A DNA stretch of 64,000 bases from Candidatus Moraniibacteriota bacterium (GTDB taxonomy: Bacteria > Patescibacteriota > Minisyncoccia > Moranbacterales > UBA9337): assembly GCA_026985555.1 (NCBI GenBank), contig JALSQF010000010.1, forward strand, positions 26,112 through 90,111, given 5' to 3'. Positions 51,766 to 64,000 of this stretch are shown piece by piece. Position 1 is the stretch's first letter, and every line of letters starts with the position of its first letter. Made by a program: the position numbers and the translations under genes. Below the pieces are notes generated by a model. The model saw only the letters and a program-made list of their open reading frames with translations, ran no database searches and was not told the origin of the DNA.

Positions 51766-53835
51766 ATGCAATTAATAAAAAAACTTATAAAAACCAATGA
51801 CAAATATGATTTATCAGTTTTTAGTAAGGAAAGTGTAGATGAACTAGAAAAAAGAATTTATGAAAAAAATAATAAACTTTATTTTGATTGTTTAGTCAGA
51901 GAAAAATCAATCCAAGTAAAACCAGAAGAAATTGTAAGACAACTAATGATTGATAAACTTTTGAAAGAATATAATTATCCCAAAGAACTTTTACAAGTAG
52001 AGTATACAGTTACTTTTGGAAGAGAGAAAAAATCAGCTGATATTGTTATTTTGAATAAAAAAGATAAAACAAGTCCTTATATAATTGTTGAAGTTAAAAA
52101 AGCAAGTGCCAAAGATGGCAAAGAGCAATTAAAATCATATACAAATGCAACAGGCGCACCTCTTGCTGTATGGACTAATGGTCAAGAAATAAATATATAT
52201 GAAAGGCTTGACCCAAACTATTTTGAGCCACTTTCAGATTTACCAAAATATGAAGAAACTATTGAAGATGTAAAACAAGAAATTTTCACTTATCTTGATT
52301 TGATGGTGAAAGACAAGCTTGCAAATGAAAGAAAATCTTTAAAAGATTTGATTTTAGAGCTTGAAGATGAAGTTTTGGCAAATGCAGGTGTAGATATTTT
52401 TGAAGAAGTTTTTAAACTGATTTTCACAAAACTTTATGATGAAATGCAAAGTGCAGATGATAGAATTCAGATAGAAAGAGATTTTGTTAGACTAAAAAGA
52501 CAAAAGCCAGAGCTTACAGATAAAGAAATTTTGCAAGGATTATTAAAAGAAAACAAAAATAATGTAGAAGGATACAGAAAACTTGAATTTAGAAGTAGGG
52601 GAGATGCTCATCATACAAAAGAAGTGATAAATAAGCTTTTTGAAAAGGCAAAAAGAAAATGGCCGGGTATTTTTGATGATGGAGAACCTCTTAGAATTAC
52701 CGATGAAAATCACTTACAAATTTGTGTTGGTTATTTACAAAATGTAAAACTTTTTAACTCAAATTTGCAAGTAATTGATGAAGCATTTGAATATCTTGTA
52801 AATAAATCAGCAAAAGGTGATAAAGGTCAATATTTCACACCAAGAAATGTTATAGATATGGCTGTTTATATGATAAACCCGAAGCCAAATGAATATGTAA
52901 TAGATACAGCAGCCGGCAGTTGCGGTTTTACAGTGCATACACTATTTAATGTTTGGAATAAACTTAAAAATCAAGGAAAAGCAAATTTTCATAATTTTTC
53001 AAATCAGAGGTTAACTCCTGAACAAATAGAATATACAAGTAAAGTTTTTGGTATTGATTTTGATGAAAAAGCAGTAAGAGTAGCAAAAACTCTAAATATG
53101 ATTGCAGGAGACGGAAAAACAAATGTAATTCATCTAAACTCACTTGATTTCACAAGATGGAATGAAAAGATAAAAGATAGAGAGTGGATGAGAAAATATG
53201 GCGAGGGGTATTATAGGCTGCTTGATTTAGCAGTAAATAGAGATGAACCAAAAGAATTCAATTTTGATATAGTTTTGACTAATCCTCCTTTTGCGGGAGA
53301 TATAAAAGATAATAGACTTTTAGCTCAATATGAAATAGCATATAAAGAAAATGGAAAAAGAGTATCAAAACTTAGTAGAGATATTTTATTTATAGAAAGA
53401 AATCTAAATATGCTAAAACCTGGTGGTAGAATGGCAATAATTTTACCACAAGGTAGATTTAACAATACTTCAGATGAAAGAGTCAGAGAATATATAATGA
53501 GTAAAGCAAGACTTATTGCTGTAATAGGACTTCATGTTAATACTTTCAAACCACATACAGGAACAAAAACTTCTGTTTTGTTTGTGCAAAAATGGAATGA
53601 TGACCCAAACAAAGGTCCATTAAATCCTTATAAAGAAGATTATGAAGTTTTTATGGCAGTAAGCGAAAAACCAGGAAAAGATAATTCAGGGCAAGAAGTT
53701 TACAAAACAGATCCTGAAACGGGAGAAAGGTTGCTTGACGAGCATGGGCATTTAATACAAGATCATGATTTGGAAGAAATAGCAAAAGAGTTTGAGAAGT
53801 GGGCTAAGAAGGAAGGGTTGAGTTTTTGGAAATAA
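51766..53835 (+). CDS. Restriction-modification subunit: N-terminal PD-(D/E)xK nuclease-like domain fused to a gamma-class N6-adenine DNA methyltransferase (HsdM-like; Type IIB/BcgI-A-like architecture)
   Basis: N-terminal D92...E109-V-K111 (SADIVILNKKDKTSPYIIVEVKK), resembling the HsdR_N endonuclease fold. MTase motif I VIDTAAGSCGF and motif IV TNPPFAG. No hsdR in the window. Confidence 0.7.
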   Translation: MQLIKKLIKTNDKYDLSVFSKESVDELEKRIYEKNNKLYFDCLVREKSIQVKPEEIVRQLMIDKLLKEYNYPKELLQVEYTVTFGREKKSADIVILNKKDKTSPYIIVEVKKASAKDGKEQLKSYTNATGAPLAVWTNGQEINIYERLDPNYFEPLSDLPKYEETIEDVKQEIFTYLDLMVKDKLANERKSLKDLILELEDEVLANAGVDIFEEVFKLIFTKLYDEMQSADDRIQIERDFVRLKRQKPELTDKEILQGLLKENKNNVEGYRKLEFRSRGDAHHTKEVINKLFEKAKRKWPGIFDDGEPLRITDENHLQICVGYLQNVKLFNSNLQVIDEAFEYLVNKSAKGDKGQYFTPRNVIDMAVYMINPKPNEYVIDTAAGSCGFTVHTLFNVWNKLKNQGKANFHNFSNQRLTPEQIEYTSKVFGIDFDEKAVRVAKTLNMIAGDGKTNVIHLNSLDFTRWNEKIKDREWMRKYGEGYYRLLDLAVNRDEPKEFNFDIVLTNPPFAGDIKDNRLLAQYEIAYKENGKRVSKLSRDILFIERNLNMLKPGGRMAIILPQGRFNNTSDERVREYIMSKARLIAVIGLHVNTFKPHTGTKTSVLFVQKWNDDPNKGPLNPYKEDYEVFMAVSEKPGKDNSGQEVYKTDPETGERLLDEHGHLIQDHDLEEIAKEFEKWAKKEGLSFWK

Positions 53836-53856: not shown

Positions 53857-56115
53857 ATGATTAAAAAAATTAAAAAAATAAAAAACCTTGGAATATTTAA
53901 TGAATTTAGATGGAATTCATCTATTTTAGAATTTAAAAGATATAATTTATTTTATGGATGGAATGCATCAGGAAAAACTACTTTGACTACTATTTTTGAG
54001 TCATTGAATTTAAATATTACGAAATATTTTAAAGATGCGGGATATGAGATAGAAACTAATAATGGTGATATTTATAAACAAAATGATATTTTTCCAACAA
54101 AAGTTAGAGTTTTTAATCAGCATTACATAGATGAAAATATACATATTTCTAATGGAAAAACAAAACCTATTTTTTTATTGGGTGAAGAAAGTAAAGAATT
54201 AAAAGAAAAAATAGATAATTGGGAAGATGAAAAAATCAAATTAAAAAATATAAAAATAGAATTAGAAAGAGTGAAAGAGCAAAAGGAAAAAGATATTAAT
54301 AATATTTTTACAAATACTGCTAGAATTATAGGTGAAAATTTATCTGGTTCATCAGTCAGAAATTATAGAAGAAATGATGCAAAAGATGATTTTGAAAAAT
54401 TAGCTCAGAAAGAACTATTGTCACAAGAAGATTTAGAAAAATATAAAAAGATAAAAGAACAAAAGAAAAAAGAAAAGATTGATGAAATAGTATTTACTTT
54501 AAGGCAAGACAAAATTTTAGAAGAAATAAAAAACATTTTAAAAAAATCTGTTAATTCTATTATAATAGCAAGACTAAAAAATAATCCAGATATTTCTGCT
54601 TGGGTTGAGAAAGGTATTGAAATTCATAAAAAACACAATTCTAAAACTTGTGAATTTTGTGGTCAAAGTTTACCAAATGGTTTAATAGAAAAACTTTTGC
54701 TTTATTTTAATGAAGAAGATAAAAAATTAAAGCAAATTATTGATGAAAAAATAAATTTTTTAAATAATAAATTTAATGAATTAAATAATTTAAACATACC
54801 TAAGAAAGTTGAATTATATGATGACTTGTATAATGATTTTGAAAGCAGATTAAGTTCCTTTAATAAAGAAAGGATAAATTTATCAAATGAGATTTCAGAA
54901 TTAATCAAACATTTACAAAACAAAAAATTTAAGACTAGTGAACCTATGAAAATTACATTTTATTTTAACAATTCATTTGAAGAAGCATTAAAAAATTTAA
55001 ATGAAATAATAAAAAAGCATAATAATAAAACAGAAAATTTACAAGAGCAAAAAGATGAGGCATTTAAAAAAATAAAAAACCATTATCTAAGTGAGATATG
55101 GGATAAGGTGAAAGAAAATGAAAGTAAAATTAGTGAAATAAACAATAATATAACTATCATTAATAATGGTGGTAGTTTTACTTATAAAGGTAAAAACATT
55201 GAAACAATTGAAACAATAGGGCTTTCAAAATTAAATAATGAAATTTTAGAGGCAAAGGCTAAAATATCTGATTTACATAAATCAGTTGATAAATTGAATA
55301 AGTATTTAGAAACATTTTTAGGTAGAAATGAAATAAAATTTAAGGTATCTGATGAGCAAGATGGATTTATAATATTAAGAAATAATGAGATTGTAAGCAA
55401 TTTGAGTGAAGGTGAAAAAACAGCAATTGCTTTTGTTTATTTTATAATTCATTTGCAAGATAAAGATTTTAATATAAACAATGGAATTGTAGTTGTAGAT
55501 GATCCTGTATCTAGTTTTGATTCAAGTTCTGTTTTTCAAGCCTTTGCATTTATGAGAGAAGCTGTTAAAGATGCAAAGCAAATCTTTATTTTTACTCATA
55601 ATTTTGATTTTTTTAAATTAACTTTAAATTGGTTTAAGAATTCAAGAAGAAATTGGAGTTGTTATCAAATTAAAAATAAAATGATTAAAGAAAAAGAGAA
55701 TACAAAAAGAATAGCTTATATAGATAAAATCGATCATTTTATTGAAAAATATACTACAGAATATGAATATTTGTTTAAGGTATTGTATGAATTTAATAAT
55801 TCAGACCCAAGTAATATAGAAGATGTTTATAATATACCAAACATTGGTAGAAAAGTTTTGGAAACATTTTTAACATTTAGAATTCCTACTTCAGAAAGTT
55901 TGTATCAAAAATTACAGAAAATAAATTTTGATGAAAATAAAAAGACCTCAATATACAAGTTTTTTAATGATTTATCACATTTGACAGGTAGTGGTTTTCA
56001 CCCATCATTGATACAAGAATCTAAGAAAAATGTAAAATATTTGTTAGAAATGATAAAAAGTTCTTTTAAGGAACATTATGATATTTTAGAAAATACTTTA
56101 TCTAACCAAAACTAA
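53857..56115 (+). CDS. RloC/PrrC-like ABC-type ATPase with a coiled-coil CxxC zinc-hook insert and a C-terminal R-x3-E...H module (putative anticodon nuclease)
   Basis: Walker A GWNASGKTT (residues 34-42), a long coiled-coil insert containing CEFC (residues 265-268), Walker B IVVVDDPVSSFD, and a C-terminal GRKVLETF...LSH. It sits between the MTase and S genes, and its stop is 2 nt before the hsdS start. Confidence 0.55.
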   Translation: MIKKIKKIKNLGIFNEFRWNSSILEFKRYNLFYGWNASGKTTLTTIFESLNLNITKYFKDAGYEIETNNGDIYKQNDIFPTKVRVFNQHYIDENIHISNGKTKPIFLLGEESKELKEKIDNWEDEKIKLKNIKIELERVKEQKEKDINNIFTNTARIIGENLSGSSVRNYRRNDAKDDFEKLAQKELLSQEDLEKYKKIKEQKKKEKIDEIVFTLRQDKILEEIKNILKKSVNSIIIARLKNNPDISAWVEKGIEIHKKHNSKTCEFCGQSLPNGLIEKLLLYFNEEDKKLKQIIDEKINFLNNKFNELNNLNIPKKVELYDDLYNDFESRLSSFNKERINLSNEISELIKHLQNKKFKTSEPMKITFYFNNSFEEALKNLNEIIKKHNNKTENLQEQKDEAFKKIKNHYLSEIWDKVKENESKISEINNNITIINNGGSFTYKGKNIETIETIGLSKLNNEILEAKAKISDLHKSVDKLNKYLETFLGRNEIKFKVSDEQDGFIILRNNEIVSNLSEGEKTAIAFVYFIIHLQDKDFNINNGIVVVDDPVSSFDSSSVFQAFAFMREAVKDAKQIFIFTHNFDFFKLTLNWFKNSRRNWSCYQIKNKMIKEKENTKRIAYIDKIDHFIEKYTTEYEYLFKVLYEFNNSDPSNIEDVYNIPNIGRKVLETFLTFRIPTSESLYQKLQKINFDENKKTSIYKFFNDLSHLTGSGFHPSLIQESKKNVKYLLEMIKSSFKEHYDILENTLSNQN

Positions 56116-56117
56116 CT

Positions 56118-57467
56118 ATGGCACAAATAAGCATAATAAACATAAAAAATATAATCCAAGCAAAAAGGTTTGATGCTGAGTATTTTAAACCGGAGTATTT
56201 GAAGGATGATTTTTATTTAGAAAATAAAGGCTTTTTCTTATTGTATGAAATTTCAAATGTTAAAGGGGGGAAAAGATTACCATTAGGAGAAAAGTTTTCA
56301 GAAAAAGGAGTTCCTTATATTAGGGCAGAAGATATAAAAAATGATTTTGTTGAATATGAAAATGTACCAAGAATTTCTTTACAATTACATGAAAAATTAA
56401 AAAAATATCAAACTAAAAAAGATGATATATTGTTAACTATTGTAGGTTCTGTTGGAGCTATTGGTATTGTAAATTTTAATTTAGAAAGATGCAATTTAAC
56501 AGAAAATGCAGCTAAAATAACTAATTTAGATTTTAATAAATATAAATCAGAAGTGATATTTTCTTTTTTGTTATCTAAATATGGTCAAAATCAAATAAAA
56601 AGAGAAAAAGTAGGAACAGTTCAAGAAAAATTATCATTAGATAGACTAAGAAAATTTAAAATTCCTCTTCTCCCTCAATCCTTCCAACTCCAAATAGAAA
56701 AAATAGTAAAAGAAGCTTATGAAAAACAATCTCTTTCAAAAGAACTTTACAAAGAGGCAGAACAGATTTTGCTTAAAGAATTGGATTTGAAAGATTTCAA
56801 ACCAAAACATAAATTGACTTTCACCACAACAAAAAAAGAAATAGAACAGGATAAAAGATTTGATGCAGAATATTTTCAGCCAAAATATGAAGAAATTATT
56901 GAGAAAATAAAAAGTTATAAGGGGGGATTTGATAAAGTTGGGGAAGTAGTAAATATAAAAGATAAAAATTTTACATCAAAAGATTATGTAAAATATAAAT
57001 ATGTTGCATTAGCTGATATTTCAAATGATGGATATATTCAAAGTTTTGAAGAAGATTTCGGTAAAAATTTACCTACAAGAGCAAGAAGACTTATAAATAA
57101 AGGAGATGTAATTATTTCTTCTATTGAAGGTTCTTTAAATTCTTGTGCTTTAATTGAAGAAGAATTTGATAATTCAATTTGTTCTACAGGTTTTTATGTT
57201 GTAAATTCTGAAAGAATAAATCCTGAGACATTATTAGTTTTAATGAAATTATATCCAATACAAAAACTGTTGAAAAAAGGGTGTAAAGGAACAATACTTA
57301 CTGCAATACCAAAAGATGAATTAGAAAAAATTGTTTTACCAATTATTGACAATCAAACCCAACAAAAAATTTCTCAAAAAATACAAGAGAGCTTTAAACT
57401 TAAAAAAGAGTTAAAAGAGCTTTTGGAAAAAGCCAAAAAAATGGTAGAAGAGGAAATAGAAAAATGA
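56118..57467 (+). CDS. hsdS: Restriction-modification specificity subunit (HsdS-like, two target-recognition domains)
   Basis: Duplicated conserved segments RFDAEYFKPEYL and RFDAEYFQPKYEEI separating two variable TRDs. Central and C-terminal conserved helices (LQIEKIVKEAYEKQ, ELKELLEKAKK). Confidence 0.8.
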   Translation: MAQISIINIKNIIQAKRFDAEYFKPEYLKDDFYLENKGFFLLYEISNVKGGKRLPLGEKFSEKGVPYIRAEDIKNDFVEYENVPRISLQLHEKLKKYQTKKDDILLTIVGSVGAIGIVNFNLERCNLTENAAKITNLDFNKYKSEVIFSFLLSKYGQNQIKREKVGTVQEKLSLDRLRKFKIPLLPQSFQLQIEKIVKEAYEKQSLSKELYKEAEQILLKELDLKDFKPKHKLTFTTTKKEIEQDKRFDAEYFQPKYEEIIEKIKSYKGGFDKVGEVVNIKDKNFTSKDYVKYKYVALADISNDGYIQSFEEDFGKNLPTRARRLINKGDVIISSIEGSLNSCALIEEEFDNSICSTGFYVVNSERINPETLLVLMKLYPIQKLLKKGCKGTILTAIPKDELEKIVLPIIDNQTQQKISQKIQESFKLKKELKELLEKAKKMVEEEIEK

Positions 57468-57570
57468 TTTCTTTTTTATATTAAAATTTCCAAACATTTT
57501 GTAAAAATCTTAAATTATGTTAGAGTTAATTAAAGTTAACGCAATTGAAAGATAAATTTAAAAACGACCA

Positions 57571-57598
57571 CATTAAAGGGGTCATTAAAGGGGTCATT
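57571..57598 (+). repeat. Tandem 12-bp repeat GGGGTCATTAAA (about 2.7 units), second locus
   Basis: ccacattaaaggggtcattaaaggggtcatt. Same unit and orientation as 10464-10499; 34 bp upstream of the AbrB-like ORF. Confidence 0.9.
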
Positions 57599-57631
57599 TT
57601 TTAATTTTAAATAATAAGCAATAATAAAACT

Positions 57632-57808
57632 ATGTCTAGAAGAAAATTAAAGGATAGAAATATCCGTGAACTATCTAAACGAAGCAATGGAACTTATGCT
57701 CTTACTTTACCCATTGAATTAATACGTGAATTAAAATGGAGAGATAAACAAAAATTAGTGGTGGAAAAAGCAGATAAAAAAATAATTATTAAAGATTGGA
57801 AAAAATAA
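57632..57808 (+). CDS. Small AbrB/MazE/SpoVT-type DNA-binding protein (58 aa; absent from the ORF track, probably below its length cutoff)
   Basis: MSRRKLKDRNIRELSKRSNGTYALTLPIELIRELKWRDKQKLVVEKADKKIIIKDWKK; this is a swapped-hairpin-like segment (TYALTLPIELIRELKW...KLVV). Confidence 0.5.
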   Translation: MSRRKLKDRNIRELSKRSNGTYALTLPIELIRELKWRDKQKLVVEKADKKIIIKDWKK

Positions 57809-58760: not shown

Positions 58761-58830
58761 CCAATTATCTCTAAAAATCAGTATTTAGTATTTAAAAGTT
58801 AAAAAATAATTTTTACAAAAATTTTATTCT
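58761..58830. repeat. Left arm of an imperfect inverted-repeat pair of about 75 bp (partner at 63769-63846)
   Basis: ccaattatctctaaaaatcagtatttagtatttaaaagttaaaaaataatttttacaaaaattttattct; by eye about 85% reverse-complement identity to the partner, including an exact 21-mer. Confidence 0.8.
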
Positions 58831-59750
58831 TGTTTCTCTTGTTTTTTGTTTTTTTTGTTATGAAACTTTTGATGAATTTTTTTTAATTGCTGATTGGTAA
58901 TGTGAGTGTAAATTTGAGTAGTGGTAATAGAAGAATGGCCTAACATACTTTGCACGCTTCTGATATCAGCACCATTAGATAAAAGATCAGTGGCAAAGCT
59001 ATGTCTTAAAGTATGAGGATGAACATCTTTAGTGATACCAGCTTTAGTAGCGTAATATTTAACAATTCTTTGTATACTTCTAGATGTTAAACGTAAATTA
59101 TCTTCCTTTTTATTTTTAGTTAGACGAATAAAAAGAGCTTCATCTATATCAGTCCGCTGTTGCAAATATTTTAAAAGCGCTTGACGGGCAGTTTCCGAAA
59201 GGAAAACTAGTCTTATTTTCCCGCCTTTTCCTTTAACACTAAACTCTTGTTTATCTAAATTAATTTGATCGCGATTTAAATTAACTAGTTCGGAAACACG
59301 CAAACCAGTGGAGAAGAGTAATTCTAAAATTGCTCTATCACGTAAACCTTTAAAGCCGTTTTCATCGGGAGATTGAAGTAATTTTTCTAATTCATCTTTG
59401 GTTAGAAATTCAATTTCTTTTTGTGGATTTTTACCTACTTCTATTTTTTCTGCTGGTAAAGTTTTTATATCACGAACGGCCAGATATTTTAAAAAATTGC
59501 GTAAAGCAATAATGTGATAATTTTGAGTAGATTTTTCTAGTTTTTTTCCTTTTTCATCTTCAAAACGATTTAAATACAAACGATATTGTCTTACTTTTTC
59601 TAGGGTGATATCTTCTGGTTGGCTAATTTGAGTAAAATCTAAAAAACGTTTTAAATAATGATGATAATTTTCTATGGTTTTAAGGGAACGGTTTACTTCT
59701 ATTTCTAAATGCTCTAAAAATTGATTAACTAATTTTTCTAAAGTAGTCAT
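58824..59750 (-). CDS. xerC: Tyrosine site-specific recombinase (XerC/XerD family)
   Basis: N-terminal core-binding domain; catalytic R...HxxR...Y region (HTLRHSFAT, GHSSITTTQIYTH). The stop codon lies inside the left inverted-repeat arm. Confidence 0.8.
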   Translation of the reverse strand: MTTLEKLVNQFLEHLEIEVNRSLKTIENYHHYLKRFLDFTQISQPEDITLEKVRQYRLYLNRFEDEKGKKLEKSTQNYHIIALRNFLKYLAVRDIKTLPAEKIEVGKNPQKEIEFLTKDELEKLLQSPDENGFKGLRDRAILELLFSTGLRVSELVNLNRDQINLDKQEFSVKGKGGKIRLVFLSETARQALLKYLQQRTDIDEALFIRLTKNKKEDNLRLTSRSIQRIVKYYATKAGITKDVHPHTLRHSFATDLLSNGADIRSVQSMLGHSSITTTQIYTHITNQQLKKIHQKFHNKKNKKQEKQE

Positions 59751-62875: not shown

Positions 62876-62937
62876 TATTTTTTGATATATATTTGCTAAA
62901 AAATATTTTTTTAGTGATTGATAAGAATTTTTTGATG

Positions 62938-63011
62938 TGGGCGTATTCCGACTTGAACGGAAGACCTCTTGCGTGTCGAGCAAGCGCTCTAACCAGCTGA
63001 GCTATACGCCC
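62938..63011 (-). tRNA. tRNA-Val (anticodon GAC), CCA not encoded; unusual C at position 33
   Basis: Reverse complement folds as acceptor GGGCGTA/TACGCCC, D-stem GCTC/GAGC, anticodon stem CTTGC/GCAAG, loop TCGACAC and T-loop TTCAAGT. Confidence 0.7.
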
Positions 63012-63768
63012 AAATTTAAATTTTAAATAAATATATTTTTTGTAATTTTAATTAATTTATTTATTTAGTTAAAACTAAATATTATATTATATCATAATAT
63101 GTAATATGTATAGTATTATAAATTTTTTTATATATATTTATATATGAAATTACATAAACCATATACATACTTGTATAAATCATATACATATATGTATATG
63201 ATTATATAACAAATAGTATGTTGTAATGAAATAATAAAAAGAAAAAACAAAAAAGGAAATAAATTAAATATAGAAACATAAATATATAATATAAATATTT
63301 AATATATATCAAAATGATAACTAAATTTAATTTTATATATTTTTTATAATATAAAAAATATATAAAATTAAAAAACAAAACTTAATCTAATAAAAAACAA
63401 GTAAACAAAAAATTTTTATATACGTTACATGTATAATCACAATAAAGATATTTAAAACAAATAAAAGATAAAAAATAAAAGTAATTTTATTTGTGTAAAT
63501 GTCGTCCAATCTACATTGTGCGACACATATAATATAAGTATCTATGTATGTATATATAAATATATACGAAAGCAATAAGTAAAAATATAAACAAGCCATT
63601 TATATATTTATTTGTATATATATAAATATTACCCTATTCCCTTTTTTAAAACTCTTAAAATTAAAAAAAATTTAAAAGATTAAAAGTGAAGTTTTATTTT
63701 TAATTAAAATTAATTAGAATAAAAAAAATTATTATTATATAGAAAATAGAAAATAAAAAAACAAAAAT
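63012..63768. repeat. Extremely AT-rich low-complexity tract with short TA/CATA-type micro-repeats
   Basis: Runs of atatacata and tatgtatatg and poly-A/T; only a dubious 70-aa antisense ORF. Confidence 0.6.
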
Positions 63769-63846
63769 AAAAATAAAATATTTTTTGCAAAAAATATTTT
63801 TTAAATTTTAAATACTAAATACTGATTTATTTTTAGAGATAATTTA
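63769..63846. repeat. Right arm of the inverted-repeat pair (partner of 58761-58830)
   Basis: aaaataaaatattttttgcaaaaaatattttttaaattttaaatactaaatactgatttatttttagagataatt. Confidence 0.8.
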
Positions 63847-64000
63847 TATTTTATATATTTAATTTAAATTCTAGTAATGAATAATAATTGAGTTAAAAGA
63901 AGTCCTATTATATCAAAATTGTCTAAATATTTCATTTGATTTTTGTTTAATATTAATAAGACTGAATAATTATTTATTTTTTGATGAGATGGAATCAATA

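What the first reader, a model, noticed from the sequence alone, without database searches (positions are those of the whole stretch)
53857..56115. 752-aa ABC ATPase with a Rad50-like CxxC zinc hook in a coiled-coil insert and a C-terminal Arg-x3-Glu...His triad: the RloC hallmark features
Seen directly in the translation: Walker A GWNASGKTT at residues 34-42; then about 450 aa dominated by heptad-like K/E/L segments containing CEFC at residues 265-268 (nt 54649-54660); then Walker B/D-loop IVVVDDPVSSFD; then a C-terminal region with GRKVLETF (R-x3-E) followed about 35 residues later by LSH. RloC is described as a PrrC-like anticodon nuclease whose ATPase head carries a Rad50-like coiled-coil/zinc-hook insertion, and which excises the wobble nucleotide of tRNA. 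This ORF reproduces that layout in a tiny AT-rich, probably CPR-type genome, where losing tRNAs would be especially costly.
Basis: partly seen in the sequence, partly recalled or inferred. Interest (0 to 1): 0.65.

Follow-up and report, generated by a model that had tools for sequence, protein, structure and literature searches.

The report
RloC anticodon nuclease inside restriction operon
This gene encodes a clear member of the already known RloC family, a Rad50-like ATPase fused to a tRNA-cutting HEPN nuclease that shuts down translation as a back-up antiviral defence, and here it sits in the middle of a two-gene restriction-modification system, so the finding is correct but ordinary.

Summary
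ORF 53857-56115 (+) encodes 752 aa. It carries Walker A (34-42), CEFC (265-268) in a ~380-aa, 72% helical insert, signature LSEGEK, Walker B/D-loop (544-555), switch His581, and R665-x3-E669-x38-S707-H708.

These motifs are not chance. In 88 homologues down to ~22% identity, K40, C265, C268, D548, D549, H581, R665 and H708 are invariant. The Glu-to-His spacing (36-50) fits the published RloC rule (X36-52).

The gene splits a BsaXI-like Type IIB restriction-modification pair: a nuclease-methylase fusion upstream and an S subunit downstream. In its clade, 10 of 11 loci are R-M-linked.

Verdict: a new member of a known family. The likely function is an abortive-infection tRNase, triggered by DNA ends and/or failure of restriction. 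Activity, tRNA target and the apical position of the hook remain untested.

The parts
53857..56115 (+). rloC-like gene, 752 aa: ABC ATPase head split by a coiled-coil/CxxC insert, followed by a C-terminal HEPN nuclease domain
   Evidence: ORF. Pfam AAA_13 E=4.4e-127, residues 11-730 on model positions 2-712 of 713. PADLOC PDC-S06 E=4.5e-231. 107 homologues, many named 'wobble nucleotide-excising tRNase' by IMG.
53956..53982 (+). Walker A / P-loop, GWNASGKTT (residues 34-42)
   Evidence: K40 is invariant in 88 sequences. It corresponds to GkaRloC K44, whose mutation abolishes ACNase activation.
54184..55326 (+). Helical (coiled-coil type) insert, residues 110-490, between the two ATPase lobes
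   Evidence: AlphaFold2 model, mean pLDDT 88.7. Helices at 110-162, 172-259 (segmented), 276-437 and 456-488; 72% helical overall. Foldseek's best solved matches are Rad50 and SMC heads with coiled coils.
54601..54660 (+). Zinc-hook region: W249-V-x-x-G253 ... H257 ... C265-E-F-C268
   Evidence: W249, G253, C265 and C268 are invariant in 88 sequences. The region aligns with GkaRloC '...DLQEWVREGLGLHKGLECAFCG' at 42% identity, E=2e-6. The CxxC lies in a hairpin-like loop (260-275) between helices.
55402..55419 (+). ABC signature-like motif, LSEGEK (516-521)
   Evidence: E520 is invariant; L516, S517, E518 and G519 are conserved at >=90%.
55486..55521 (+). Walker B and D-loop, IVVVDDPVSSFD (544-555)
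   Evidence: D548, D549, P550, S553 and D555 are invariant. The Asp-Asp form is that of PrrC (Asp215/Asp216). The GkaRloC Walker B residue that was mutated is Asp572.
55594..55602 (+). Switch/linchpin histidine, T-H581-N
   Evidence: H581 is invariant. It is the counterpart of PrrC His251.
55642..56112 (+). C-terminal domain (596-752): a beta-hairpin followed by a helical HEPN-fold nuclease domain
55849..55863 (+). R665-K-V-L-E669: the Arg and Glu of the anticodon-nuclease triad
   Evidence: R665 is invariant; position 669 is E in 59/88 and D in 29/88. These are the counterparts of GkaRloC R692/E696 and EcoPrrC R320/E324, which are essential by mutagenesis.
55957..55980 (+). K701-x2-N704-x2-S707-H708: HEPN-type [R/K]x6H motif carrying the triad His
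   Evidence: H708 is invariant; S707 is Ser in 83/88; N704 is Asn in 82/88; position 701 is K in 61/88 and R in 15/88. The spacing is identical to EcoPrrC R349-x2-N352-x3-H356, all three essential.
51766..53835 (+). Upstream operon partner: 689-aa nuclease-methyltransferase fusion (Type IIB-like RM subunit). Motifs: D93...E109-x-K111, QLKSY 121-125, motif I 380-388, NPPF 506-509
   Evidence: Pfam HSDR_N_2 53-160 plus N6_Mtase 336-623. The best solved relative is RM.BsaXI 8w0p_A, E=1.1e-24, with both domains aligned. The gene ends 21 nt before rloC.
56118..57467 (+). Downstream operon partner: 449-aa specificity (S) subunit with two target-recognition domains
   Evidence: Pfam Methylase_S, two stretches. 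Solved S subunits 5ybb_D and 3okg_A match at E~2e-17. The gene starts 2 nt after the rloC stop codon.

Best explanation
The ORF is an RloC-family anticodon nuclease. It acts as an abortive-infection back-up to the restriction-modification system whose two genes flank it.

Shown here:
- It has the full RloC anatomy: an ABC ATPase head with intact catalytic motifs, a long helical insert with an invariant CxxC, and a C-terminal HEPN-fold domain with invariant Arg and His.
- It is homologous to the characterised G. kaustophilus RloC.
- It lies in one tightly packed, same-strand gene cluster (an inferred operon) with a BsaXI-like nuclease-methylase fusion and an S subunit.

Inferred from what is established for GkaRloC and AbaRloC:
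- The protein dimerises through its ATPase heads.
- In the resting state, a zinc ion held by the CxxC hooks keeps the nuclease silent.
- Binding of DNA ends plus ATP hydrolysis releases the HEPN domain.
- The HEPN domain cuts tRNA anticodon loops by metal-independent transesterification, excising the wobble nucleotide. This blocks translation and stops phage that escaped restriction.

Also inferred: the cis-linked R-M enzyme either supplies the signal (double-strand ends, or loss of restriction) or masks the nuclease as EcoprrI masks PrrC.
For: - Family placement: Pfam AAA_13 full-length match, E=4.4e-127; PADLOC PDC-S06, E=4.5e-231.
- All three published RloC screening criteria are met (searches give the criteria; one search gives the positions).
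- In 88 homologues, K40, C265, C268, D548, D549, H581, R665 and H708 are invariant, and the Glu-to-His spacing is 36-50.
- Homologues at 46-49% identity are named 'wobble nucleotide-excising tRNase' by IMG.
- The GkaRloC hook region aligns directly (E=2e-6). It also links through Paenibacillus P0102: 337 aa at E=1e-17, and P0102 to the ORF at E=1.5e-42.
- The whole model has pLDDT 88.7, and its best solved matches are Rad50 and SMC heads.
- The essential PrrC residues R320, E324, N352 and H356 have identically spaced counterparts R665, E669, N704 and H708; R349 is matched in spacing by K701, i.e. Lys rather than Arg.
- Published mechanism for the family: a zinc-hook/DNA-dependent ATPase switch, with linear DNA as the best activator, and activation by double-strand-break inducers in the natural host.
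- Context: the gaps to the flanking RM and S genes are 21 nt and 2 nt. The same RM gene sits upstream of a 96%-identical copy in another sample.
- R-M genes lie within 5 kb in 10 of 11 loci of the >=40%-identity clade. The nearest R-M gene is within 100 bp in 22 of 33 loci and on the same strand in 30 of 33.
Against: - There is no biochemical evidence for this protein.
- No full-length sequence of GkaRloC or of any PrrC could be fetched. The direct link to the characterised enzyme rests on an OCR-derived fragment (residues ~121-480) and a transitive chain.
- Position 701 is Lys, whereas the equivalent PrrC R349K mutant was inactive. Lys is, however, the majority residue in this family at 61/88.
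- A His found in 62/88 homologues (column 637, 'SEYHYLF') is Glu in this ORF. If it corresponds to the essential PrrC His295, activity could be altered. The mapping is unverified.
- The apical position of the CxxC could not be measured. The helices around it are asymmetric, with 109 helical residues before it and 167 after.
- The published view is that RloC needs no R-M partner, so the coupling to the flanking enzyme is inference from gene order.
Confidence: 0.8

Rival explanations
1. PrrC-style masked nuclease. The protein is held inactive by physical binding to the flanking (RM)2S-type restriction enzyme. It is unleashed when a phage anti-restriction protein disables that enzyme, rather than by autonomous sensing of DNA ends. 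This differs from the best explanation only in the trigger.
For: - The gene sits between the RM and S genes with 21-nt and 2-nt gaps.
- The Wolfebacteria homologue lies in hsdM-hsdS-rloC-hsdR, which is the prr locus order.
- In this clade, 10 of 11 loci are R-M-linked, and the R-M gene is usually within 100 bp on the same strand.
- The PrrC precedent, and the proposal that RloC may team up with R-M enzymes, are published.
Against: - The partners are R-M systems of unrelated architectures: type I, DpnII and HinfI type II, MmeI-like, and BsaXI-like. A conserved protein-protein masking interface is hard to reconcile with that diversity.
- GkaRloC is regulated in vitro without any R-M protein.
- AbaRloC is activated in an R-M-deficient host.
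- The invariant CxxC argues that the internal switch is kept.
Confidence: 0.3
2. A HEPN RNase of the same architecture but with a different substrate, such as mRNA, rRNA or another tRNA site, so that it is not a wobble-nucleotide-excising enzyme.
For: - HEPN domains cut many kinds of RNA.
- Identity to the retrieved relative nearest the characterised enzyme (P0102) is only about 23-24%.
- K701 stands in place of Arg, and E637 in place of the common His, so the active-site surroundings differ.
- Even PrrC and RloC differ from each other in cleavage pattern.
Against: - The residues shown to be essential in both tRNA-specific enzymes are conserved with identical spacing.
- No member of this ABC-HEPN family has been reported to have a non-tRNA target in the papers read.
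Confidence: 0.15
3. A non-nucleolytic Rad50/SMC-like accessory ATPase of the restriction enzyme, for example bridging DNA or sensing DNA ends, whose C-terminal HEPN domain only binds nucleic acid.
For: - The best solved-structure matches are Rad50, cohesin and SMC heads, and also LmuB.
- There is a weak PADLOC LmuB hit, E=8e-7.
- Some HEPN domains are non-catalytic.
Against: - R665 and H708 are invariant, and E/D669, N704 and S707 are nearly so, across 88 sequences. That is the pattern expected of an active site.
- BsaXI-type enzymes work as (RM)2S without any ATPase.
- No Mre11/SbcD-like or LmuA-like partner gene is nearby.
Confidence: 0.05

Closest known systems
RloC of Geobacillus kaustophilus HTA426 (YP_146738, 804 aa) and of Acinetobacter baylyi ADP1
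   Same: - The order of parts is the same: Walker A, coiled-coil insert with CxxC at about 40% of the insert, signature, Asp-type Walker B/D-loop, switch His, then Arg-x3-Glu-x(36-52)-Ser-His.
- The local hook motif W-V-x-x-G...H...C-x-F-C-G is shared.
- The size falls within the family range of 658-897 aa.
   Different: - Overall identity is low: about 23-24% to P0102, the retrieved relative that aligned best with the GkaRloC fragment.
- The protein is shorter (752 vs 804 aa).
- It has Lys701 where PrrC has Arg349, which the PrrC paper says is conserved in RloC, and Glu637 where most homologues have His.
- It is embedded in cis in an intact R-M operon, whereas the Gka gene lies in a transposon next to an hsdR relic.
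PrrC anticodon nuclease of E. coli (EcoprrI locus)
   Same: - ABC NTPase with an Asp-Asp Walker B and a switch His.
- C-terminal nuclease with R-x3-E and [R/K]-x2-N-x3-H at identical spacing.
- The gene is inserted within an R-M operon, and the role is back-up abortive infection.
   Different: - PrrC has no coiled-coil/zinc-hook insert and is much shorter (its triad His is residue 356; I recall about 400 aa in all).
- PrrC has a PrrC box and a LARP motif, nicks rather than excises, and its partner is a type Ic enzyme with HsdR.
- Here the partner is a motor-less BsaXI-like RM+S pair.
Rad50 / SbcC
   Same: ATPase head split by an antiparallel coiled-coil insert carrying a CxxC hook. Foldseek's best solved match is Rad50 in 7zr1_C.
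   Different: - Rad50/SbcC have no C-terminal HEPN domain.
- They have much longer coils (my own knowledge).
- They work with the Mre11/SbcD nuclease, and no such gene is nearby.
- Their Walker B is hhhhDE (my own knowledge), whereas here it is hhhhDD.
PADLOC candidate system PDC-S06
   Same: Full-length match to model PDLC04894, E=4.5e-231. It is a single-gene AAA ATPase candidate defence system.
   Different: PDC-S06 is only a bioinformatic candidate label with no assigned mechanism in the papers read. The RloC assignment supplies the mechanism.
BsaXI Type IIB restriction-modification enzyme (for the flanking genes)
   Same: An RM fusion subunit with an N-terminal PD-(D/E)xK-type nuclease and a gamma-class N6-adenine methylase, plus a separate two-TRD S subunit.
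   Different: - The RM subunit is shorter (689 vs 916 aa).
- Similarity is modest (E=1.1e-24).
- Whether it cuts on both sides of its site is unknown.
- The rloC gene is inserted between the two subunit genes.

Membership tests
RloC | ABC ATPase motifs: Walker A, signature, Walker B/D-loop and switch His | tested here: met
   GWNASGKTT 34-42, LSEGEK 516-521, IVVVDDPVSSFD 544-555 and H581. K40, E520, D548, D549, D555 and H581 are invariant in 88 sequences.
RloC | Largely alpha-helical insert splitting the ATPase domain, with a central CXXC | tested here: met
   The insert spans 110-490 and is 72% helical in a model of pLDDT 88.7. CEFC 265-268 sits in a loop between helices. C265 and C268 are invariant.
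RloC | CXXC at the apex of an antiparallel coiled coil, forming an intermolecular zinc hook | not testable with these tools
Only local helix-hairpin-helix geometry is visible. The asymmetry around the hook resembles GkaRloC, where the hook is at 288-291 in an insert spanning 121-540.
RloC | C-proximal Arg-X3-Glu-X36-52-His, with Ser often before His | tested here: met
   R665-x3-E669-x38-S707-H708. The family spacing is 36-50. R and H are invariant.
RloC | Size 658-897 aa | tested here: met
   752 aa.
RloC | Sequence homology to an experimentally characterised RloC | tested here: met
   An OCR fragment of GkaRloC aligns to residues 234-269, E=2e-6. It aligns to P0102 over 337 aa, E=1e-17, and P0102 matches the ORF at E=1.5e-42 over 99% of its length. 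The full-length Gka sequence could not be fetched.
RloC | Excision of the tRNA wobble nucleotide; Zn-responsive nuclease activated by a DNA-dependent ATPase | not testable with these tools
   These are biochemical properties of GkaRloC. No computation can show them for this protein.
HEPN superfamily (PrrC/RloC branch) | Helical HEPN fold with a conserved basic-x4-6-His motif | tested here: met
PrrC | Contiguous ABC NTPase without a coiled-coil insert (I recall about 400 aa in all), with PrrC box and LARP motif | tested here: not met
   The ORF is 752 aa with a 380-aa insert. The features are described. The PrrC box and LARP could not be aligned because no PrrC sequence was available.
Rad50/SbcC | No C-terminal nuclease domain; partnered with an Mre11/SbcD gene | tested here: not met
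   A C-terminal HEPN domain is present. The neighbours are the RM and S genes, polA and a MazE-like ORF.
Lamassu LmuB | SMC-like LmuB encoded with an LmuA effector | tested here: not met
   There is only a weak LmuB hit, E=8e-7, against E=4.5e-231 for PDC-S06. No LmuA-like neighbour is present.
MADS (for the flanking genes) | MAD2 and MAD5 equivalogs above the NCBIfam cut-offs, together with the other mad genes | tested here: not met
   MAD2 scores 319.9 bits against a cut-off of 720. MAD5 scores 145.6 bits against a cut-off of 400. The ORF itself matches no mad model.

The most novel reading that the evidence does not exclude
In this clade, RloC is not the free-standing, self-regulated enzyme described for Geobacillus and Acinetobacter. 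Instead it is an obligate cis-encoded guard that plugs into R-M systems of any architecture. Here that system is a motor-less BsaXI-like Type IIB (RM)2S enzyme in a small AT-rich (possibly CPR) genome. The double-strand ends produced by the partner enzyme, or the loss of the partner, would be the physiological trigger. This would extend the PrrC-EcoprrI paradigm from type Ic to Type II/IIB enzymes.
Probability: 0.3. Interest if true: 0.45.

Novelty: new member of a known kind. Interest (0 to 1): 0.25.

Why it matters
It adds a well-supported RloC to a small, AT-rich genome and documents a clean operon in which an anticodon nuclease splits the two genes of a Type IIB-like restriction enzyme.

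The survey suggests that in this branch of the family, cis-linkage to R-M genes is the rule (10 of 11 loci). The founding paper found linkage to type I or type III loci in only 8 of 72 cases.

That bears on the open question of what triggers RloC in nature: DNA ends, or failure of restriction. The locus offers a compact three-gene system for testing it. It changes no general concept, because the family, its fold assignment and its association with R-M operons are already published.

Tried and rejected
- NCBIfam has no model that matches the ORF.
- No PDB chain matches the ORF by sequence, either whole or with a C-domain profile.
- I tried to fetch the characterised GkaRloC. The genome-contig scan with the Paenibacillus homologue returned only two Paenibacillus loci. 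A second homologue search did not list Geobacillus among its top 120 hits. Scanning 225 retrieved proteins for the published residue fingerprint K44/C291/D572/R692/E696/H737 found none. I fell back on the OCR text of the paper's supplementary alignment.
- No PrrC sequence could be obtained. The PrrC comparison therefore rests on published residue numbers and spacing only.
- The afdb50 fold library was unavailable.
- The first metagenome scan, with the single protein, found nothing. The second, with the alignment, succeeded.
- An exact look-up of the RM protein's encoding contig found nothing on record. Cluster look-ups gave no organism names.
- MADS was considered for the flanking genes and rejected, because both scores are far below the cut-offs and the other mad genes are absent.
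- An HsdR elsewhere in the window was looked for and not found.
- The promoter/terminator scan is uninformative in this AT-rich DNA: 54 promoter-like sites against 42 expected.
- The GC dip over the gene (21-23% against 25-31% nearby) is too modest to call an acquired island.
Full report
**Observation.** The window carries an ATG-initiated ORF at 53857-56115 on the + strand, encoding 752 aa. A GGAGGAG ribosome-binding site sits just upstream. The ORF also has an ABC signature-like LSEGEK at 516-521 and a switch histidine in T-H581-N. Two details need correcting. The helical insert is about 380 aa (110-490), not about 450. The triad His lies 38 residues after the Glu, not about 35.

**Not chance.** A search of the 5.8-billion-protein collection returned 107 homologues, almost all 730-800 aa and all carrying PF13166. 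In an 88-sequence alignment reaching about 22% identity, the invariant residues are K40, W249, G253, C265, C268, R508, E520, D548, D549, P550, S553, D555, Q575, H581, R665 and H708. S707 is Ser in 83 and Thr in 5. Position 669 is Glu in 59 and Asp in 29. N704 is Asn in 82. The protein has only three cysteines, and two of them make the CxxC.

**Family definition.** The paper that defined RloC screened candidates for ABC ATPase motifs, CXXC and the putative nuclease triad. It describes the triad as Arg-X3-Glu-X36-52-His with Ser often preceding His, and gives a size range of 658-897 aa. The ORF has R665-x3-E669-x38-S707-H708, and the family spacing I measured is 36-50. The Asp-Asp Walker B is normal for these enzymes. 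The essential Walker B residues are Asp215/Asp216 in EcoPrrC, and the GkaRloC Walker B mutant is D572N.

**Database placement.**
- Pfam AAA_13 matches residues 11-730 to model positions 2-712 of 713, E=4.4e-127.
- The PADLOC candidate system PDC-S06 matches end to end, E=4.5e-231. The best alternative, LmuB, reaches only E=8e-7.
- NCBIfam has no model for the ORF, and no PDB chain matches by sequence.
- IMG names many homologues at 46-49% identity 'wobble nucleotide-excising tRNase'. NCBI uses the same name for a Nitrosomonas protein in the Paenibacillus-type branch.

**Link to the characterised enzyme.** I could not fetch GkaRloC from the collections. The supplement of the 2008 paper holds an OCR'd alignment of GkaRloC residues 121-540. 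The reconstructed fragment (~121-480) aligns with ORF residues 234-269 at 42% identity, E=2e-6. That stretch covers N-x-D-[IL]-x-x-W-V-x-x-G-[IL]-x-[IL]-H-K...C-x-F-C-G, which is the invariant W249/G253/C265/C268 block. The same fragment aligns over 337 residues with the Paenibacillus homologue P0102, E=1e-17. P0102 in turn matches the ORF over 99% of its length, E=1.5e-42. The hook sits at about 40% of the insert in both proteins.

**Structure.** An AlphaFold2 model built on the 88-sequence alignment has mean pLDDT 88.7. It shows:
- a beta/alpha N-lobe;
- helices at 110-162, 172-259 (segmented), 276-437 and 456-488;
- the CxxC in a short hairpin-like loop (260-275) between helices;
- the C-lobe of the ATPase, a long beta-hairpin, and a helical C-terminal domain.

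Foldseek against the PDB puts Rad50 of the Mre11-Rad50-Nbs1 complex first (E=5e-7). Cohesin, condensin and SMC heads follow, then LmuB and PtuA. No RloC or PrrC structure appears in any of the PDB searches.

I could not test whether the CxxC is at the apex of an antiparallel coiled coil, because model coordinates are not exposed. The helices are asymmetric around the hook, with 109 helical residues before it and 167 after.

**Active-site detail.** Mutagenesis of EcoPrrC found R320, N321, E324, R349, N352, H356 and H295, among others, to be essential. The ORF has R665-K666-x2-E669 and K701-x2-N704-x3-H708, with exactly the PrrC spacing R349-x2-N352-x3-H356. There are two caveats:
- PrrC R349K was inactive, yet position 701 is Lys in 61 of 88 homologues and Arg in only 15.
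- A His present in 62 of 88 homologues ('SEYHYLF', column 637) is Glu in this ORF and in a few close relatives, and Asn in the Paenibacillus proteins. It might correspond to PrrC His295, but I could not verify the mapping without a PrrC sequence.

**Surroundings.** The gene is the middle one of three tightly packed + strand genes.

- *Upstream gene, 51766-53835 (ends 21 nt before the ORF).* It encodes a 689-aa protein with an HSDR_N_2 domain (53-160) and an N6_Mtase domain (336-623). Its best solved relative is RM.BsaXI (8w0p_A, E=1.1e-24). Both domains align, including D93...E109-x-K111 against the BsaXI D...E-V-K. It also has NPPF at 506-509 and a QLKSY motif. BsaXI is a Type IIB enzyme that assembles as (RM)2S from an RM fusion and an S subunit.
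- *Downstream gene, 56118-57467 (starts 2 nt after the ORF stop).* It encodes a 449-aa two-TRD specificity subunit.
- *No HsdR.* No HsdR-type gene exists among the large ORFs of the 64-kb window, which are housekeeping genes.
- *MADS rejected.* The MAD2 and MAD5 hits are far below their cut-offs.

So rloC splits a two-subunit, motor-less, Type IIB-like R-M system. A 96%-identical copy from an independent sample has the same RM gene upstream.

**Is this context typical?** Individual look-ups gave:
- a DpnII-type type II system immediately upstream;
- orphan methylases nearby;
- hsdR-hsdM-...-hsdS-rloC;
- hsdM-hsdS-rloC-hsdR in a Wolfebacteria genome, which as I recall is the prr locus order;
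- a HinfI-type system.

In a seed-based survey of fetched loci, R-M genes lay within 5 kb in 10 of 11 loci of the >=40%-identity clade. The rates were 11 of 20 metagenome loci at 30-40% identity, 6 of 19 below 30%, and 14 of 71 on viral contigs. Among non-viral loci with an R-M gene, the nearest one is within 100 bp in 22 of 33 and on the same strand in 30 of 33. These are lower bounds. Pfam on 'negative' loci revealed an MmeI-type enzyme, a RhuM protein and an OLD-family ATPase as neighbours. RhuM and R-M association of PrrC/RloC genes is already in the literature. No random-locus control was run.

**Mechanism.**
- *Shown here:* anatomy, conservation, folds, homology and tight same-strand gene packing (co-transcription is inferred).
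- *Established for the family:* GkaRloC cuts tRNA anticodon loops and excises the wobble nucleotide. Triad mutants are inactive. Zinc-hook mutations activate it and uncouple it from an ATPase that needs DNA, with linear DNA the best activator. Double-strand-break inducers activate RloC in its natural host, even without R-M.
- *Inferred for this locus:* the resting dimer is silenced through its zinc hooks. DNA ends plus ATP hydrolysis release the HEPN nuclease, and tRNA cleavage stops translation.

The cis-linked restriction enzyme makes double-strand breaks if it behaves like BsaXI. It may therefore supply the signal, or it may mask the nuclease as EcoprrI masks PrrC. The diversity of partner R-M types in the clade argues against a conserved masking interface and favours a DNA-borne signal. 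Neither possibility is tested.

**Verdict.** The protein is a new member of the known RloC family. PrrC, Rad50/SbcC, LmuB and MADS memberships are each excluded by a tested feature. The mildly new elements are the insertion between the two genes of a Type IIB-like enzyme and the near-obligate R-M linkage of this clade. The remark about a CPR genome could not be checked. The closest named homologues are Parcubacteria and Wolfebacteria, and the window is 27.8% G+C.

Noticed in passing
window 51766-53835 (+) and 56118-57467 (+): The genes flanking the ORF form a BsaXI-like Type IIB restriction-modification pair. One is a 689-aa nuclease-methylase fusion with D93...E109-x-K111, QLKSY and NPPF motifs. 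The other is a 449-aa two-TRD S subunit. No HsdR is present anywhere in the window. The MAD2/MAD5 hits are far below their cut-offs.
   Followed up: partly
window 57560-57600 and 57632-57808 (+): A tandem CATTAAAGGGGT x2 followed by a T-run lies between the S gene and a 58-aa MazE/AbrB-like ORF (Pfam MazE_antitoxin, E=1e-5). It may be an operator or a terminator. No toxin partner is evident; the next ORF encodes a 302-aa protein with no Pfam match and long hydrophobic stretches (possibly membrane-bound).
   Followed up: no
window 63012-63900: About 900 bp with no ORF of 250 aa or more, at only 13% G+C, lies directly next to tRNA-Val(gac) at 62937-63011 (-). No Rfam family matches besides the tRNA.
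   Followed up: no
L001 (NCBI GCA_054022635.1, JBPMRF010000008.1): In this public assembly the contig ends inside the RM gene, leaving only 409 codons, whereas the window holds the complete gene. The assembly breaks within the restriction-modification gene.
   Followed up: no
L009-L082 (IMG/VR contigs): RloC-like proteins at 22-32% identity are encoded on 74 predicted viral or prophage contigs. Only 14 of the 71 with enough flank have an R-M gene nearby. A prophage-borne, R-M-independent branch of the family therefore exists.
   Followed up: partly
L092 8501-9496, L134 8386-8826, L094 2015-4180: Loci without seed-detectable R-M genes have other defence neighbours next to the RloC homologue: a RhuM-family protein, an MmeI-type enzyme N-domain, and an OLD-family AAA_15/TOPRIM ATPase.
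   Followed up: partly
window 58824-59750 (-): A XerC/D-type tyrosine recombinase gene lies about 1.4 kb downstream of the S gene on the opposite strand. The rloC gene has lower G+C (21.9%) than the window (27.8%). Whether the three-gene cluster is a mobile island was not resolved.
   Followed up: partly
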